Part shown: one piece after another, positions 15,064 to 19,141 of the stretch | Numbering within the stretch: the stretch's first letter is position 1 | How the letters are laid out: the number at the start of each line of letters is the position of its first letter | DNA from: a virus | Taxonomy: Duplodnaviria; Caudoviricetes | DNA: 64,000 nucleotides | IMG/VR virus record: IMGVR_UViG_3300007512_001664 | Coordinates: 64,001 to 128,000 of that record | Direction: 5' to 3' (one strand) | Made by a program: the position numbers and the translations under genes | Notes under the pieces: generated by a model | Databases searched by the model: none | Seen by the model: the letters and a program-made list of their open reading frames with translations, nothing else | Told to the model about the DNA's origin: nothing

Positions 15064-16383
15064 ATGAGCTTCGAACCATTCATACAAAATAGAAGAGGAT
15101 TCTTATCTACATTAGCTAAAGGTATAGGAGTACTTGCTAGTCCAGATGCAGTAACAAATGTAGCTAAAGCAGCAGGAAGATCTACACCTAACCAACCTCT
15201 TAAAGCAGGTCTCGGTCATGTATATAGAGCACTCTTAAAAACTACTGGAGACTATCATGAGTATTCGCCGGGATTCAGTATTAAGCAAAGAGAGCATATA
15301 ACTCAGATAGCTATGGCCGCTCTACATAAAGTAGAAAAAGAGGATTGGTCAGATGAAGTTGTAGGCTTTAAGGATATGGTAGGTCACTTTCAATATTATT
15401 TTGATGAAGGAGAATCATTTGAAGATGCGTACACTGCGTTTGAAGATGATAATATGTTTGATATATATGATCTCGTAAAGAAATACGCATATGATTTAAG
15501 AACTGTCGGTTCAGTTGACACAAAAGATCTAACAGATCGTATGGTAAGAGAAATTTCAGATGGAAATGGGTTCGATGATTTTTGGGATACGCTGGCGATG
15601 AAACATGGTCCTAGAGAGCCCGGTGAACAAAGACCAGACGATAGAGATTATTTAGATAAAGATTACGCACAGGGCCCTCATATGAATAGCGCGCAAGTAA
15701 GCTTTAAAGATTTCCACAACCTTAACGAAGCATTCGATAAACCTTATTCATTTAATGTAGATAGCAGCGAGTACCCTCTAACAGTCTATAACTTTACAGT
15801 AGACGACGTCGACGATCCATATACCGTACAAGCCGTATTCGATCCAGTAGATACATTAGATCAATTTATAGAACCAGAGAGAGATAGCGCTGGTATCGCA
15901 AAGCAAGACCACCGCCAAGCGGTTAAACAGGCTGATCGATACATAGCATTTAAGTATCCCAGCGCTATTAAACCAGAATACGCTAAAGTTATTGAATATG
16001 GATTTTCAGATAAAGGATCTGGATCAATCGAGAAAACCGGGAAAGGCGGCCATAGTGCTACTCGTGTCATTGGTACTGTCATACAAATAGCTCAGCATTA
16101 TATGATTACCAGAGAGCCCAAAGTCTTACTCTTTACTGGCGCTAAAGATGAGAATAGAGGCCCTATCTATACTAAACTAACTCACTTGGCATTCAGATCT
16201 CTTAAAGATGGTGCACTGTCTGGTTATAACTACTTCATAGATGACCACCTTAAGGGAGATGTAAGATTTTGGATCTATAAAGAAAAGGATATACCTTACC
16301 TCGGTGACGAGAACTTCCAGGAATTCTTAACTAATGATCGATGGCATCAGCAAAACCCTGGCCTTGATAATGTATACGCATAA
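15064..16383 (+). CDS. late two-part protein: twin-arginine-like N-terminus plus internal CTS-like leader and second domain
   Basis: NRRGFLSTLAKGIGVLA at the N-terminus, internal VSFKDFHNLNE|A, and TAAATA at 15045-15050. Confidence 0.55.
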   Translation: MSFEPFIQNRRGFLSTLAKGIGVLASPDAVTNVAKAAGRSTPNQPLKAGLGHVYRALLKTTGDYHEYSPGFSIKQREHITQIAMAALHKVEKEDWSDEVVGFKDMVGHFQYYFDEGESFEDAYTAFEDDNMFDIYDLVKKYAYDLRTVGSVDTKDLTDRMVREISDGNGFDDFWDTLAMKHGPREPGEQRPDDRDYLDKDYAQGPHMNSAQVSFKDFHNLNEAFDKPYSFNVDSSEYPLTVYNFTVDDVDDPYTVQAVFDPVDTLDQFIEPERDSAGIAKQDHRQAVKQADRYIAFKYPSAIKPEYAKVIEYGFSDKGSGSIEKTGKGGHSATRVIGTVIQIAQHYMITREPKVLLFTGAKDENRGPIYTKLTHLAFRSLKDGALSGYNYFIDDHLKGDVRFWIYKEKDIPYLGDENFQEFLTNDRWHQQNPGLDNVYA

Positions 16384-16968
16384 ATGATACCTTTTAAACA
16401 GTATATTGCTGAGGCAAATCCTAAGTCTCTCATAGTTGTTGATGTTCAACCAGTCTATACTCATCTGATGCAAGATGAAGTAACTGCGATAACAGAGTTC
16501 ATAAACACAAAAGCTGAGAGAGTGCTAGCATATTTTAACGGTGAAGATGCTGGTGAGAGAGATACTTTAGAAGATGTTAAGCAGTGGTACCTTGATAATG
16601 GACTAGAGGAAGAGAGCTTAGCTAAGATAAACTTCCAAGAGAAAACATATGCATACCTTAGAGGGTGGATGGACGATGTGGAGGAGAGGGATATTATAAA
16701 GGTAGTCAGATATATGGTGACTAATAGAATACAACAGTCTGACCAGATAGGTAATAGTGCTATAGTTGAATTATTAGGAATAGATGTAGCTAGGGAAGTT
16801 GATGATATTGATCCTATATACATTCCTGATATTGATCTTTCATTAATTAAACAGTATAACAAATCGTATATTGGTGGTGGAGGGCGCCATGAATGTTTAA
16901 AAGAAATTACTCTTATGATGAATGCATTCAATATTAAATACAAATTAATCAACAATTTCATATATTAA
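16384..16968 (+). CDS. isochorismatase-like cysteine hydrolase with CTS-like leader
   Basis: MIPFKQYIAE|A leader, SLIVVDVQP (catalytic Asp motif), and GGGRHECL (catalytic Cys region). Confidence 0.65.
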   Translation: MIPFKQYIAEANPKSLIVVDVQPVYTHLMQDEVTAITEFINTKAERVLAYFNGEDAGERDTLEDVKQWYLDNGLEEESLAKINFQEKTYAYLRGWMDDVEERDIIKVVRYMVTNRIQQSDQIGNSAIVELLGIDVAREVDDIDPIYIPDIDLSLIKQYNKSYIGGGGRHECLKEITLMMNAFNIKYKLINNFIY

Positions 16969-17163
16969 ATGATCCAAGTAAGCTTACGTAAAGATGAGTC
17001 TATCGATAAAGCTCTTAAGAAGCTTAAAAAGAAATTAGATAGAGACAATATACTCAAAGAATGTCGAGATAGACGATATTTCGAAAAACCGTCAGCAAAA
17101 AAGAGACGTAAATTGAAAGAAGCTAAGTTCAAAGCTATGTTAGACGCACGTGATTTTGACTAA
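16969..17163 (+). CDS. rpsU: ribosomal protein bS21 (phage-encoded)
   Basis: ESIDKALKKLKKK...LKECRDRRYFEKPSAKKRRK bS21 signature, 64 aa. Confidence 0.93.
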   Translation: MIQVSLRKDESIDKALKKLKKKLDRDNILKECRDRRYFEKPSAKKRRKLKEAKFKAMLDARDFD

Positions 17164-17166
17164 ATA
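17161..17166 (+). promoter_or_regulatory. late promoter TAAATA
   Basis: Overlaps the bS21 stop codon, 5 nt before the GTG at 17172. Confidence 0.6.
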
Positions 17167-17171
17167 CTTAT

Positions 17172-17768
17172 GTGAAGTCATTTATCGATTTTATTAACGA
17201 GGCAGGAAAGTTTCCTACAGTTACATTAACTCAACCGTATTCGCAATCGCGTCCCGGAGCAGGAAAGCGGTTCCGTAATAAGAAAGACCCCAAAAGAGCC
17301 AATCAACAACAAGCTCTAAGAGATCAAGGCTATCGCTGGGATAAAGAAAAGAAAAAATGGGTTAAAGGCACTGTTCCTGTCAGTGCATCAACCGTGGAGT
17401 CTAAACAAGCCAAGTACATTGAAGAAGCCAAAAGAGGTCGTGAGAGTTATGAGACACGTAACCCAGATTTTGTTGATGCTTTATTAGATATTTTTTCTGC
17501 CCTCCAAGATCGAAACATAGAAAAAGGAATGACGTTAAATCGTTTTACAAATCAAGACGTTATTAAACTAATCGATGATCATGAAGTTTATGGTATTAAT
17601 GGCACTAATCCATGGCCTTCACAACATAAGGAGCGTTATATATCTAATCTTCGTCGTCTACTTGGAGTTGAAACACCCGGAAGAAAGCAAAGAAAAGATA
17701 CAGGAAAAGAGCAGGGTACTCATGATACAGGTGATGAATGGTCAGATTGGCTTAAACCGGAAGCATGA
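17172..17768 (+). CDS. putative internal head protein with CTS-like leader
   Basis: MKSFIDFINE|A leader followed by a basic segment. Confidence 0.6.
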   Translation: MKSFIDFINEAGKFPTVTLTQPYSQSRPGAGKRFRNKKDPKRANQQQALRDQGYRWDKEKKKWVKGTVPVSASTVESKQAKYIEEAKRGRESYETRNPDFVDALLDIFSALQDRNIEKGMTLNRFTNQDVIKLIDDHEVYGINGTNPWPSQHKERYISNLRRLLGVETPGRKQRKDTGKEQGTHDTGDEWSDWLKPEA

Positions 17769-19141
17769 GAGATACAGAAGCACAACTAATTTTTGAGACT
17801 TACGTAGAAGCAAAGGATGTAAGTCGACGAGATTTCTTTAAGCTATTAGGTAGAGGTGCTGCAACAGTCGCGACAGTTCCTTGGACTAAACTACTATCAG
17901 CTCCTAAGTTAGCTGCAGCAGTCACAGCACCATTTAAGATTGGTGCAGGTACTATACTTAATCCTCAGGCTCTGCATTGGTACTACGTTCGTAAGTTTGT
18001 TAACAAAGCAGAGGAAAGCGGTCTCACTCCAGTAGATGTAACAGATGAAAGGCATTACGAGGACCCAGTCGACGAGATATCTTTTGAAGCATTTGAGTGG
18101 GTTTCCAAGAATGTAATTAATATGTATGTTGATGATCGAGATCATGCTGTAGATAGAGAAGGAGACACGATAGCACCCACTATGGCTGAGTTGATCAATG
18201 ATCACGGATGGGATGAAGAGCATTTTATAGATGATCCTAATTTTCCGGAATGGGCGAAACCTCTTCTCACTAAAGATGAAGAAGATATGACTGATGAAGA
18301 GGAAGAAAAATATCAGAACTTAATGAATTCAAAGTGGTTTGATAAGCAGATGGTGATTAACTGGGATGGTGAGCAGGGCCATGGAGCTGATGAAGAGGTA
18401 GAAGAAATGCTAAGAAATTGGACTGGGTGGCATCACAAGTCGCCAGGGTCAGGTGATGTCGGGGGCCCCCTTCATGGTGATGAACTTATTACTACTGTCT
18501 TTGATTACATTGTAGATCTCAATCGCAAACGTAATGATGAGGGAAAGTTTATGGACATTAATGAGATAATGAAGATGGACTTTAAACAAGAGTTCTTACC
18601 TGGTGTTGTAAAGTATGCGAGAGAGCTGGCTGTAGCTCGATCAACTCGGTTGACAGGAAACCAACAGAGACAAGCAGGGCAAGATTTTCAAAAAGCTAAA
18701 GACGAGCTACAAAAAGACTACCTACCTAAAAGACCAGGCCAACCAGCTGAGTGGGATGATGTACATCCGGATGTTGAATGGTGGCACGAAGGTGATTTTA
18801 AATGGTGGGAGCGTCGGTTTGATGATGATGTTATTAATAGTGATAAGATCGAACAATATAAGGTTTTTGCTGATAAAATAATACAGAATCCTTTCGAAGA
18901 CGGCTTACTGTGGCCAACCACTGGGGAACCAGCTTATAGCCCTGAAGAAAGCAAAGCGATAATTAAAAAACTTAAACAAGAAGCACATGATTGGTTGAAA
19001 TGGTATGAGATGACAAAGGATAGTAGAAAGCCTAATCAAGCACATATCAAACATCCATATGGAGTAGGTAGACCTCAGAGCGGTTTACAAACAGCTAGTA
19101 CTAAGCCTACATTTAAACAGTTCTTTTTAATAAATAATTAA
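17765..19141 (+). CDS. DKDA-leader family protein 1, with twin-arginine motif
   Basis: MRDTEAQLIFETYVE|AKDVSRRDFFKLLGRGAATVATV, acidic body, C-terminal PTFKQFF. Confidence 0.65.
   Translation: MRDTEAQLIFETYVEAKDVSRRDFFKLLGRGAATVATVPWTKLLSAPKLAAAVTAPFKIGAGTILNPQALHWYYVRKFVNKAEESGLTPVDVTDERHYEDPVDEISFEAFEWVSKNVINMYVDDRDHAVDREGDTIAPTMAELINDHGWDEEHFIDDPNFPEWAKPLLTKDEEDMTDEEEEKYQNLMNSKWFDKQMVINWDGEQGHGADEEVEEMLRNWTGWHHKSPGSGDVGGPLHGDELITTVFDYIVDLNRKRNDEGKFMDINEIMKMDFKQEFLPGVVKYARELAVARSTRLTGNQQRQAGQDFQKAKDELQKDYLPKRPGQPAEWDDVHPDVEWWHEGDFKWWERRFDDDVINSDKIEQYKVFADKIIQNPFEDGLLWPTTGEPAYSPEESKAIIKKLKQEAHDWLKWYEMTKDSRKPNQAHIKHPYGVGRPQSGLQTASTKPTFKQFFLINN

What the first reader, a model, noticed from the sequence alone, without database searches (positions are those of the whole stretch)
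15064..17900. Twin-arginine (Tat-like) motifs in putative virion cargo, one hidden behind a cleavable leader
Seen in sequence: 15064 begins MSFEPFIQ-NRRGFLS-TLAKGIGVLA. In 17765, S-RR-DFFK-LLGRGAATVATVPW sits right after the DKDA leader and its YVE|A site. A third protein (12940) has VGWLAGLAAAALYLGY near its N-terminus. Established: the Tat consensus is S/T-R-R-x-F-L-K followed by a hydrophobic region. Inference: head maturation could unmask a Tat signal or membrane anchor, so that injected folded proteins are routed to the host membrane or periplasm, or jam TatBC. The h-regions are only weakly hydrophobic, so an amphipathic membrane-binding helix is an alternative.
Basis: partly seen in the sequence, partly recalled or inferred. 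Interest (0 to 1): 0.7.

Follow-up and report, generated by a model that had tools for sequence, protein, structure and literature searches.

The report
Twin-arginine module behind phage capsid leaders
Two orphan proteins of an uncultured 200-kb marine T4-like phage start with a conserved peptide that looks like a bacterial Tat export signal, placed directly behind a leader of the kind T4 uses to load proteins into its head, so the phage may inject proteins that the host then sends to its own membrane; this is not proven.

Summary
Both ORFs (15064, 17765) carry [S/N]-R-R-x-F-[L/F]. In a six-frame TIGR01409 scan of the whole 200-kb phage, the 17765 motif is the only hit: 16.3 bits against a cut-off of 16.7, with three homologues above it. 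RR and F are invariant in about 20 module copies, down to 29%-identical paralogues, and the Arg codons vary synonymously.

New here:
- The two N-termini are one homologous module of about 50 aa: RRxFΦxxL[GA][KR]G, then 35 residues on, PΦKxGxG.
- In the 17765 family the module always starts 1-5 residues after a ΦxE|A site, whatever the leader type. The site matches those in this phage's own scaffold and capsid proteins.
- The module recurs inside natural fusion proteins, at domain junctions.
- The locus resembles the T4 internal-protein locus: MIPFKQYIAE|A against T4 MKTYQEFIAE, and a gp21-type protease is present.

Against a canonical Tat signal: the uncharged core is only 11 aa (17765) or 8 aa (15064), no signal-peptidase site is conserved, and conservation runs far beyond a signal peptide.

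Best reading (about 35%): a two-part capsid-then-Tat/membrane targeting peptide. Rivals are plain Tat export (about 23%) and a non-Tat motif of packaged proteins (about 25%). No step is shown experimentally.

The parts
15064..16383 (+). ORF of 439 aa: N-terminal half carrying the RR module, fused to a C-terminal domain that stands alone in related phages
   Evidence: No Pfam or PHROG family. The AF2 model failed (pLDDT 36).
15064..15090 (+). Leader MSFEPFIQN. It is T4-CTS-like (M-x-F-x-x-F-I) but has no Glu cleavage site before the RR.
15091..15216 (+). RR module of 15064 (R10-G51): RRGFLSTLAKG...AKA|A...PLKAGLG
   Evidence: Aligned with the 17765 module; both have the P-Φ-K-x-G-x-G motif 35 residues after the first Arg. 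Invariant in 5 close relatives.
15700..15729 (+). Internal CTS-like junction SFKDFHNLNE|A. It holds the only [LI]xE site in the protein.
   Evidence: The same peptide is the N-terminus (MSFKEFHNLQEA) of the stand-alone 228-aa homologue at L003:5106-5792. Site count. The stand-alone N-terminal half, P0034, ends at this motif.
15730..16380 (+). C-terminal domain of unknown function. It is a separate gene in relatives (P0019-P0022, P0025).
16384..16968 (+). 194-aa ORF with the T4-type leader MIPFKQYIAE|A
   Evidence: The T4 CTS is MKTYQEFIAE (PMC8442874).
16969..17163 (+). Ribosomal protein bS21 homologue, in conserved synteny inside the locus
   Evidence: PF01165, 2.2e-17. Same position in L003, L004, L005 and L010.
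17172..17768 (+). 198-aa basic ORF with the leader MKSFIDFINE|A. It overlaps 17765 by ATGA and has CTAAATA 5 nt upstream.
17765..19141 (+). ORF of 458 aa, acidic (pI 4.9), helical, with no known fold. It founds a small family found only in marine-phage metagenomes.
17765..17809 (+). 'DKDA'-type leader M1-E15, with candidate protease sites IFE|T and YVE|A
   Evidence: The leader type is swapped among homologues while the E-[AGQ] boundary is kept.
17822..17950 (+). RR module of 17765 (S20-G62): SRRDFFKLLGRG-AATVATVPWT-KLLSAPKLAAAV-TAPFKIGAG
   Evidence: TIGR01409 hit at window 17819-17884. 20 invariant columns in A6. AF2 pLDDT below 50 over residues 1-63.
19052..19126 (+). Invariant, disordered C-terminal motif HPYGVG.PQSGLQTAS.KPTFKQFF. 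Its end repeats the TFKQFF leader motif.
12940..13998 (+). 352-aa ORF with the leader MMESFTKSLDKIYYNLDE|W and a basic-flanked 16-aa hydrophobic stretch (V45-Y60, nt 13072-13119)
   Evidence: mean Eisenberg hydrophobicity 0.59, moment 0.07. The stretch is kept in an 87%-identical homologue, L014.
19475..22052 (+). Array of six further genes that start with the DKDA leader (M[KR]D[KT][DE]A[QH]L..E)
   Evidence: Related leaders in L003 and L013.

Best explanation
Window 12.9-22 kb is this phage's counterpart of the T4 internal-protein locus. It is a variable array of unrelated cargo genes, each headed by a short capsid-targeting leader that ends in a ΦxE|small site for the gp21-type prohead protease.

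Two of the cargoes (15064 and 17765) carry, directly behind that leader, one shared module of about 50 aa. Its first part is a Tat-type targeting peptide (Z-R-R-x-F-L, then a Gly/Ala/Thr-rich uncharged stretch).

Proposed mechanism:
1. The leader docks the precursor in the prohead core.
2. In the 17765 family the protease removes the leader. In 15064 it would instead cut at the internal junction.
3. The processed protein is ejected with the DNA.
4. The RR peptide, now at the N-terminus, takes the protein to the host inner membrane or Tat translocon early in infection.

This works like the two-part presequences of thylakoid-lumen proteins (general knowledge).

Shown here: the motifs, their conservation and their fixed position next to the predicted cleavage site; the protease gene; and the matching sites in the phage's own scaffold and capsid proteins.

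Inferred: packaging, cleavage, ejection and any Tat or membrane interaction.
For: Tat likeness:
- The only TIGR01409 hit in the genome is the 17765 motif, at 16.3 bits.
- Homologues P0012, P0009 and P0004 score 18.5, 18.9 and 17.6, above the 16.7 cut-off.
- Variation follows the Tat consensus: RR and F are fixed, x is D/S/K/G/A, and position -1 is S/N/D.
- The Arg codons change synonymously between copies.
- Motif enrichment reaches the observed count in 1 of 1000 shuffles.
- The same phage encodes a DUF1552 protein that starts MNRRQFIG.
- The weak language-model neighbours are mostly Tat-signal families (a lead only).

Leader and cleavage:
- Peptidase_S77 is present.
- MIPFKQYIAE|A and MKSFIDFINE|A resemble the T4 CTS MKTYQEFIAE.
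- The phage scaffold has 8 ΦxE[AGS] sites, including VFNE|A, and the capsid protein has LRE|G at residues 60-62.
- Every 17765-family member keeps E-[AGQ] 1-5 residues before the RR, across at least four unrelated leader types.

The RR need not be N-terminal at synthesis:
- P0026 (1013 aa, an open frame under table 11) has a conserved RR module at residue 366, preceded by a leader-like xxEA peptide.
- P0002 (789 aa) has one at residue 456, in the same arrangement.
- 15064 is itself a fusion, with the junction SFKDFHNLNE|A.

Parallel case: the LysM protein at G000 32591-33451 reads MTFKQ...FLRE|G, then PWSSR-AAALGLGAASLFGG-PGEVQA|K.

Precedent: T4 Alt is cut by gp21 at both ends (PMC5694885).
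Against: - The uncharged core is 11 aa in the window's 17765 and most homologues. It is bounded by conserved G[KR]G and T[KR]. In 15064 it is 8 aa.
- The P. aeruginosa Tat signals visible have 12-27 aa by my count, and the phage's DUF1552 has 15.
- The window copy of 17765 scores just under the TIGR01409 cut-off, and 15064 hits neither TIGR01409 nor PF10518.
- No signal-peptidase A-x-A site is conserved in the 17765 family (LAAK|V, LAKT|V).
- Conservation continues about 45 residues past the RR, which suggests a specific binding partner.
- 15064 has no Glu site between its leader and the RR.
- The cargoes are acidic and large, unlike the basic T4 IPII and IPIII.
- I found no precedent for re-export of an ejected phage protein.
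- There are no proteomic or expression data.
Confidence: 0.35

Rival explanations
1. Packaged or ejected head proteins whose RR module is not a Tat signal. The roughly 50-aa module (RRxFΦxxLG[KR]G ... PΦKxGxG) would be a conserved linear motif. It could dock onto a phage or host partner, or act as a peripheral amphipathic membrane-binding helix at the cytoplasmic face. The likeness to the Tat consensus would be convergent.
For: - Conservation covers 20 invariant columns over 52 residues, far more than signal peptides usually show.
- The motif PΦKxGxG sits at an identical 35-residue spacing in two otherwise unrelated proteins.
- The short 8-11 aa uncharged core is flanked by fixed basic residues.
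- No signal-peptidase site is conserved.
- Both the N-terminal module and the invariant C-terminal motif are predicted to be disordered.
- Residues 22-39 have a hydrophobic moment of 0.55 with a low mean hydrophobicity.
- The evidence for a cleavable leader is the same as for the best explanation.
Against: - The exact SRRDFLK consensus appears in several members.
- Variation follows Tat rules.
- Scores exceed the TIGR01409 cut-off in 3 homologues.
- The amphipathicity of the RR-proximal 11-mer does not differ from that of real Tat signals, so it does not favour this reading.
Confidence: 0.25
2. Ordinary Tat substrates made during infection and exported to the host periplasm or membrane, like the phage's DUF1552 protein. 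The upstream leader would be only a long Tat n-region, or a shared translation or recombination cassette. The proteins would not be packaged.
For: - Tat signals tolerate long n-regions (general knowledge).
- The RR lies at residues 10-11 and 21-22, within the window used by Tat predictors.
- The same genome uses a Tat-type N-terminus on DUF1552.
- DUF1552, 15064 and 17172/17765 share an upstream CTAAATA motif.
- Four subfamilies have a Met two residues before the RR (MNRR, MDRR, MSRR), which looks like an old or alternative start.
Against: - It does not explain why an E-[AGQ] boundary is kept next to the RR across unrelated leader types.
- It does not explain why RR modules stay conserved at residues 366 and 456 of fusion proteins.
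- It does not explain why the genes sit in an array of T4-CTS-type leader genes.
- The same weaknesses of a short core and no cleavage site apply.
Confidence: 0.23
3. A chance or neutral resemblance with no targeting role.
For: Short motifs do occur by chance. Shuffles give 0.55 such motifs per genome.
Against: - RR and F are invariant in about 20 copies, down to 29% identity, with synonymous codon change.
- The 17765 motif is the only TIGR01409 hit in 200 kb.
Confidence: 0.04

Closest known systems
T4 internal proteins IPI/IPII/IPIII and Alt with their capsid targeting sequence (CTS, MKTYQEFIAE), cut by the gp21 prohead protease (PMC8442874, PMC3012670, PMC5694885)
   Same: - About 10-aa N-terminal leaders that end in ΦxE|A (MIPFKQYIAE|A, MKSFIDFINE|A, LTFKQFFNE|A).
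- A gp21-type protease gene.
- A variable cluster of unrelated cargo genes that share only the leader.
- Alt gives a precedent for processing at both ends.
   Different: - The cargoes here are large and acidic.
- A second leader class (DKDA) exists.
- Leader motifs also sit at internal domain junctions and at C-termini.
- I know of no T4 internal protein with a twin-arginine or signal-like peptide behind its CTS.
- Packaging is not shown here.
Bacterial Tat signal peptides (TIGR01409 / PF10518; S/T-R-R-x-F-L-K, PMC6085387)
   Same: - A consensus motif with invariant RR and F.
- A position near the N-terminus.
- A Gly/Ala/Thr-rich, weakly hydrophobic stretch, then a basic residue.
- HMM scores at or above the cut-off in several members.
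   Different: - The uncharged core is only 8-11 aa in the window's proteins.
- A conserved basic residue lies inside the would-be h-region (G[KR]G).
- There is no conserved A-x-A site.
- About 45 further residues are conserved.
- The motif also occurs internally in fusion proteins.
Two-part presequences of thylakoid-lumen Tat substrates such as OE23 and OE17 (general knowledge, not tested here)
   Same: The logic is the same. A first targeting peptide is removed by a processing protease in compartment 1, and this exposes a Tat signal for the next membrane.
   Different: There is no homology. Here compartment 1 would be a phage head, and the second step would take place in a newly infected cell.
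The LysM protein of the same phage (G000 32591-33451), a candidate signal-anchored or secreted cell-wall enzyme
   Same: A leader (MTFKQ...FLRE|G) is followed at once by an export-type signal.
   Different: Its signal is Sec/SAR-like with no RR, and it has a plausible VQA|K cleavage site. Its cell-wall-binding LysM domain gives an obvious reason for export. The RR proteins have no recognisable domain.

Membership tests
Tat signal peptide (TIGR01409 / PF10518) | Z-R-R-x-Φ-Φ motif with an invariant Arg pair | tested here: met
   SRRDFF (17765) and NRRGFL (15064). RR and F are invariant in 20 modules, and the TatP regex RR.[FGAVML][LITMVF] (quoted) is matched.
Tat signal peptide (TIGR01409 / PF10518) | Motif within about the first 35 residues of the precursor | tested here: met
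   RR lies at residues 10-11 and 21-22. Extra copies at residues 366 (P0026) and 456 (P0002) are internal.
Tat signal peptide (TIGR01409 / PF10518) | Uncharged hydrophobic core of about 12 residues or more after the motif | tested here: not met
   11 aa in 17765 and most homologues, and 8 aa in 15064. Three homologues have 17 aa. The phage's DUF1552 has 15, and the P. aeruginosa signals have 12-27.
Tat signal peptide (TIGR01409 / PF10518) | c-region with an A-x-A signal-peptidase site | tested here: inconclusive
   The window copies have AAA|V (17765) and AKA|A (15064). The 17765 family consensus is LAAK|V or LAKT|V, so the site is not conserved. Uncleaved Tat anchors do exist.
Tat signal peptide (TIGR01409 / PF10518) | Profile score over the curated cut-off | tested here: inconclusive
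   17765 scores 14.9-16.3 bits against a cut-off of 16.7. Homologues score 17.6-18.9. 15064 gives no hit. The DUF1552 control gives no TIGR01409 hit and 12.7 bits on PF10518.
Tat signal peptide (TIGR01409 / PF10518) | TatC-dependent, RR-dependent transport | not testable with these tools
   Needs reporter fusions in wild-type and tatC strains.
T4-type CTS-bearing internal or ejected head proteins | Short N-terminal leader resembling MKTYQEFIAE | tested here: met
   16384 and 17172 in the window. 17765-family members P0009 and P0026 carry LTFKQFFNE/TEA. The window's own 17765 has the DKDA variant, and 15064 has MSFEPFIQN.
T4-type CTS-bearing internal or ejected head proteins | Φ-x-E| cleavage site at the end of the leader, matching the phage's protease substrates | tested here: met
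   YVE|A, IFE|T, IAE|A and INE|A, compared with the scaffold's VFNE|A, LLE|A and VVE|A and the capsid protein's LRE|G. This is not met for the N-terminal leader of 15064, whose only [LI]xE site is at the internal junction.
T4-type CTS-bearing internal or ejected head proteins | gp21-type prohead protease in the genome | tested here: met
   PF03420, 6.5e-31, at G000 7015-7467.
T4-type CTS-bearing internal or ejected head proteins | Presence of the processed protein in virions | not testable with these tools
   Needs virion proteomics. No cultured relative was found.

The most novel reading that the evidence does not exclude
A two-step address label. A capsid-targeting leader loads the protein into the phage head. 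The head protease trims the leader. After injection, the exposed twin-arginine peptide makes the new host's own Tat machinery or inner membrane take up a ready-made phage effector, before any phage gene is expressed. The LysM protein's stacked leader and Sec/SAR-like signal would be a second use of the same principle.
Probability: 0.33. Interest if true: 0.85.

Novelty: new variant of a known kind. Interest (0 to 1): 0.62.

Why it matters
Capsid-targeting leaders and Tat signals are both textbook items, but I found no report of them stacked on one protein. If the stacking works as proposed, it would show that phages pre-address injected proteins to host compartments beyond the cytoplasm. That would be a new layer of early host take-over or superinfection control.

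It would also supply a natural two-part tag for engineering T4-type heads as delivery vehicles. Even if only the weaker claims hold, the locus gives a clean, testable set of protease sites, swappable leaders and a portable 50-aa module in an abundant but uncultured marine phage lineage.

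Tried and rejected
- **Complex prediction.** Complex prediction of E. coli TatC with residues 1-70 of the 17765 family gave no verdict (score 0.00). It says nothing either way.
- **Structure.**
  - The AF2 model of 17765 is mediocre (pLDDT 59.6).
  - It finds no fold in PDB by Foldseek or VIA-wide (best Z 6.0, on a helical hairpin only).
  - It finds none in the ESM Atlas (TM 0.27 or less).
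  - The AF2 model of 15064 failed (pLDDT 36).
- **Family searches.**
  - Pfam and PHROGs gave nothing for either protein.
  - There was no DNA or protein match in 50,697 phage records.
  - IMG/VR gave only two C-terminal fragments, and nothing with the module profile. One module alignment was too diverse to search with.
  - A profile search of 1.84 billion representatives found only 14 proteins, all the same family. I therefore found no wider cargo repertoire for the module.
- **Phage Tat genes.** There is no TatA or TatC gene in the phage.
- **Promoter motif.** The T4 late-promoter motif TATAAATA is not enriched and is absent near the locus. CTAAATA occurs upstream, but I did not validate it as a promoter.
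- **Amphipathicity.** The hydrophobic moment of the RR-proximal 11-mer does not separate the phage modules from real Tat signals or from the MinD membrane helix, which I recalled from memory.
- **[LI]xE sites.** The depletion of these sites inside the cargo proteins is only a weak trend.
- **Internal starts.** The residue two positions before the RR is GTA, CTC or ATC, not a start codon, in three of the four 17765-family copies whose DNA I held. It is ATG in the fourth (L010 module 2), and Met in three further subfamilies known only as protein.
- **Expression.** No RNA holder was listed among the sequencing runs. The DNA occurs in marine and seawater metagenomes.

Full report
**What the window is.** The window is bases 64001-128000 of a complete 200,819-bp virus record with direct terminal repeats.
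- The phage is T4-like. It has a gp21-type prohead protease (PF03420, 6.5e-31), a Gp23-type capsid protein (PF07068, 5.2e-90) and a gp6-type baseplate wedge.
- It has no close cultured relative.
- Its DNA occurs in marine and seawater metagenomes.

**The observation.**
- The relaxed Tat motif [STNDGAQ]RR.F[LIVMF] in the first 80 residues occurs in three real genes of the genome: 15064, 17765 and a DUF1552/PF07586 protein just beyond the window.
- Residue shuffles expect 0.55 such ORFs. The observed count of 4, which includes one spurious antisense ORF, is reached once in 1000 shuffles.
- A six-frame TIGR01409 scan of the whole phage returns one hit, the 17765 motif, at 16.3 bits against a curated cut-off of 16.7.
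- Scanned as proteins, three homologues exceed the cut-off (17.6-18.9 bits). The window copy scores 14.9, and 15064 does not hit.

**Conservation.** The 17765 family is small.
- It has 17 clusters among 5.8 billion proteins and 14 hits among 1.84 billion representatives, all from metagenomes.
- Every member with an N-terminus keeps RR, F at +2 and L/F/I at +3. The x position varies (D, S, K, G, A) and position -1 is S/N/D, which is how real Tat motifs vary.
- This holds for a paralogous subfamily only 29% identical.
- The Arg codons differ between copies, so the amino acids themselves are under selection.

**New anatomy 1: one shared module.**
- 15064 and 17765 are unrelated apart from their N-termini.
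- The N-termini align over about 52 residues: RRxFΦxxL[GA][KR]G, a short Gly/Ala/Val/Thr stretch, and then PΦKxG[AL]G exactly 35 residues after the first Arg in both.
- Within the 17765 family, 20 of 52 module columns are invariant.
- AF2 gives this region and the invariant C-terminal motif (HPYGVG.PQSGLQTAS.KPTFKQFF) pLDDT below 50, while the helical body is better defined. The most conserved parts are therefore probably linear motifs.
- The same 38-aa 15064-type module is also found joined to a proteasome-like fragment on a 574-nt contig (P0037).

**New anatomy 2: leaders and cleavage sites.** The T4 capsid targeting sequence is MKTYQEFIAE, cut after the Glu (PMC8442874).
- This phage has MIPFKQYIAE|A (16384) and MKSFIDFINE|A (17172).
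- Elsewhere in the genome it has MKTFKQFFE, MKTFKDFYE and others.
- Seven genes between 17765 and 22052 share a second leader, M[KR]D[KT][DE]A[QH]L..E.
- The phage's scaffold protein contains eight ΦxE[AGS] sites (VFNE|A, LLE|A, VVE|A and others), and its capsid protein has LRE|G at residues 60-62, where T4 gp23 is trimmed (the T4 comparison is from general knowledge). The leader ends look like this protease's real substrates.
- In the 17765 family the leader type is swapped freely (LIFETYVEA, IVQIVLEA, LTFKQFFNEA, YKDFQQEA, HRLIEQ), but an E-[AGQ] always lies 1-5 residues before [S/N/D]RR.

**New anatomy 3: junctions in fusion proteins.**
- The C-terminal domain of 15064 is a separate 228-aa gene in a related phage, starting MSFKEFHNLQEA. 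The window protein has the same peptide internally (SFKDFHNLNE|A), and this is its only [LI]xE site.
- A relative encodes the N-terminal half alone, ending at this motif (P0034).
- P0002 (789 aa) and P0026 (1013 aa, an uninterrupted frame under table 11) string two RR-module proteins together. Their internal RR modules, at residues 456 and 366, are preceded by ...TFKQFFKEA and ...LIFEAYLEA.
- P0009, P0010 and P0011 carry an extra domain after ...PTFKEFF...LRE|G.
- Leader-like peptides thus punctuate the domain boundaries, as in a polyprotein cut by the head protease. T4 Alt is cut at both ends (PMC5694885).
- Synteny is kept in relatives: C-domain gene, bS21, RR protein, then DKDA-leader genes.

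**What argues against a textbook Tat signal.**
- The uncharged run after the motif is 11 residues in the window's 17765 and most homologues, boxed in by conserved G[KR]G and T[KR]. It is 8 residues in 15064, and three homologues have 17.
- The phage's DUF1552 has 15, and the P. aeruginosa signals shown have 12-27 by my count.
- The A-x-A sites in the window copies (AAA|V, AKA|A) are not conserved in the 17765 family.
- Conservation runs well past what a signal peptide needs.

**A parallel case.**
- It reads MTFKQLSDCNEVFLRE|G, then PWSSR-AAALGLGAASLFGG-PGEVQA|K, and it carries a LysM cell-wall-binding domain (4.4e-16).
- A leader followed at once by an export-type signal is therefore a repeated design in this phage.
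- 12940 has a leader ending NLDE|W and a basic-flanked 16-aa hydrophobic stretch.

**Weighing the readings.** These are my estimates:

| Claim or reading | Probability |
|---|---|
| The leaders are cleavable capsid-targeting peptides | about 0.65 |
| The RR module engages Tat or the membrane as a Tat-type peptide | about 0.55-0.6 |
| Joint reading: two-part capsid-then-Tat/membrane targeting | about 0.35 (the single most likely) |
| Non-Tat motif of packaged proteins | about 0.25 |
| Plain Tat export without packaging | about 0.23 |
| Chance | 0.04 |

The remainder covers other roles, such as a translocon blocker. No paper in the library links capsid-targeting or ejection proteins with Tat.

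Noticed in passing
window 16969-17163 (+): A ribosomal protein bS21 homologue (PF01165, 2.2e-17) lies in the middle of the leader-bearing cargo locus. It keeps this position next to the RR protein in related contigs (L003, L004, L005, L010).
   Followed up: partly
G000 32591-33451 (L012:592-1449): A LysM-domain protein has the leader MTFKQ...FLRE|G, directly followed by a Gly/Ala-rich Sec/SAR-like signal that ends VQA|K. This is a third stacked leader-plus-signal N-terminus in this phage.
   Followed up: partly
P0037 (121 aa, on a 574-nt ENA contig): The 38-aa RR module of 15064 is fused, with identical sequence, to the C-terminal third of a proteasome-type subunit (PF00227, 1.5e-14). G000 has no PF00227 gene. 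It could be a real recombinant or an assembly chimera.
   Followed up: partly
window 19143-19466 (+); L008:1681-1992, L009:2141-2440, L010:4526-4780, L013:2237-2509: Homologues of a 107-aa orphan protein (N-terminus ..SNAVTPTFNKVIK..) lie downstream of an RR-module gene in these four related contigs, directly after it in L010 and L013. It is a candidate partner and remains untested.
   Followed up: no
window 15044, 17160, 22963, 30098, 36500 (-); G000 128958: CTAAATA lies 5-13 nt before the start codons of 15064, 17172, a 350-aa ORF on the minus strand among the tail and baseplate genes, DUF1552 and others. Often the spacing is exactly 5 nt. It may be this lineage's late-promoter variant, with very short leaders.
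   Followed up: partly
G000 7780-8664 and 8752-10323: The scaffold-like protein has 8 ΦxE[AGS] sites, and the major capsid protein has CLRE|G at residues 60-62. Together they give a predicted site preference for this phage's prohead protease.
   Followed up: partly
P0002, P0003/P0007, P0009, P0026 (module 2): A Met sits two residues before the RR (MNRR, MDRR, MSRR), as at the start of DUF1552 (MNRRQF). It may be a vestigial or alternative start codon that would yield a leaderless form.
   Followed up: partly
L010:1466-4507 (P0026 residues about 752-1013): The 1013-aa fusion ends in four or more tandem repeats of about 45 aa of helix-turn-helix type (..KIKQMYQDG.ST.DIGKQLGV...TI..RLK.MGIERR).
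   Followed up: no
window 14166-15047 (+): A family-2 glycosyltransferase (PF10111, 2.7e-10) sits between the leader-bearing genes 12940 and 15064.
   Followed up: no
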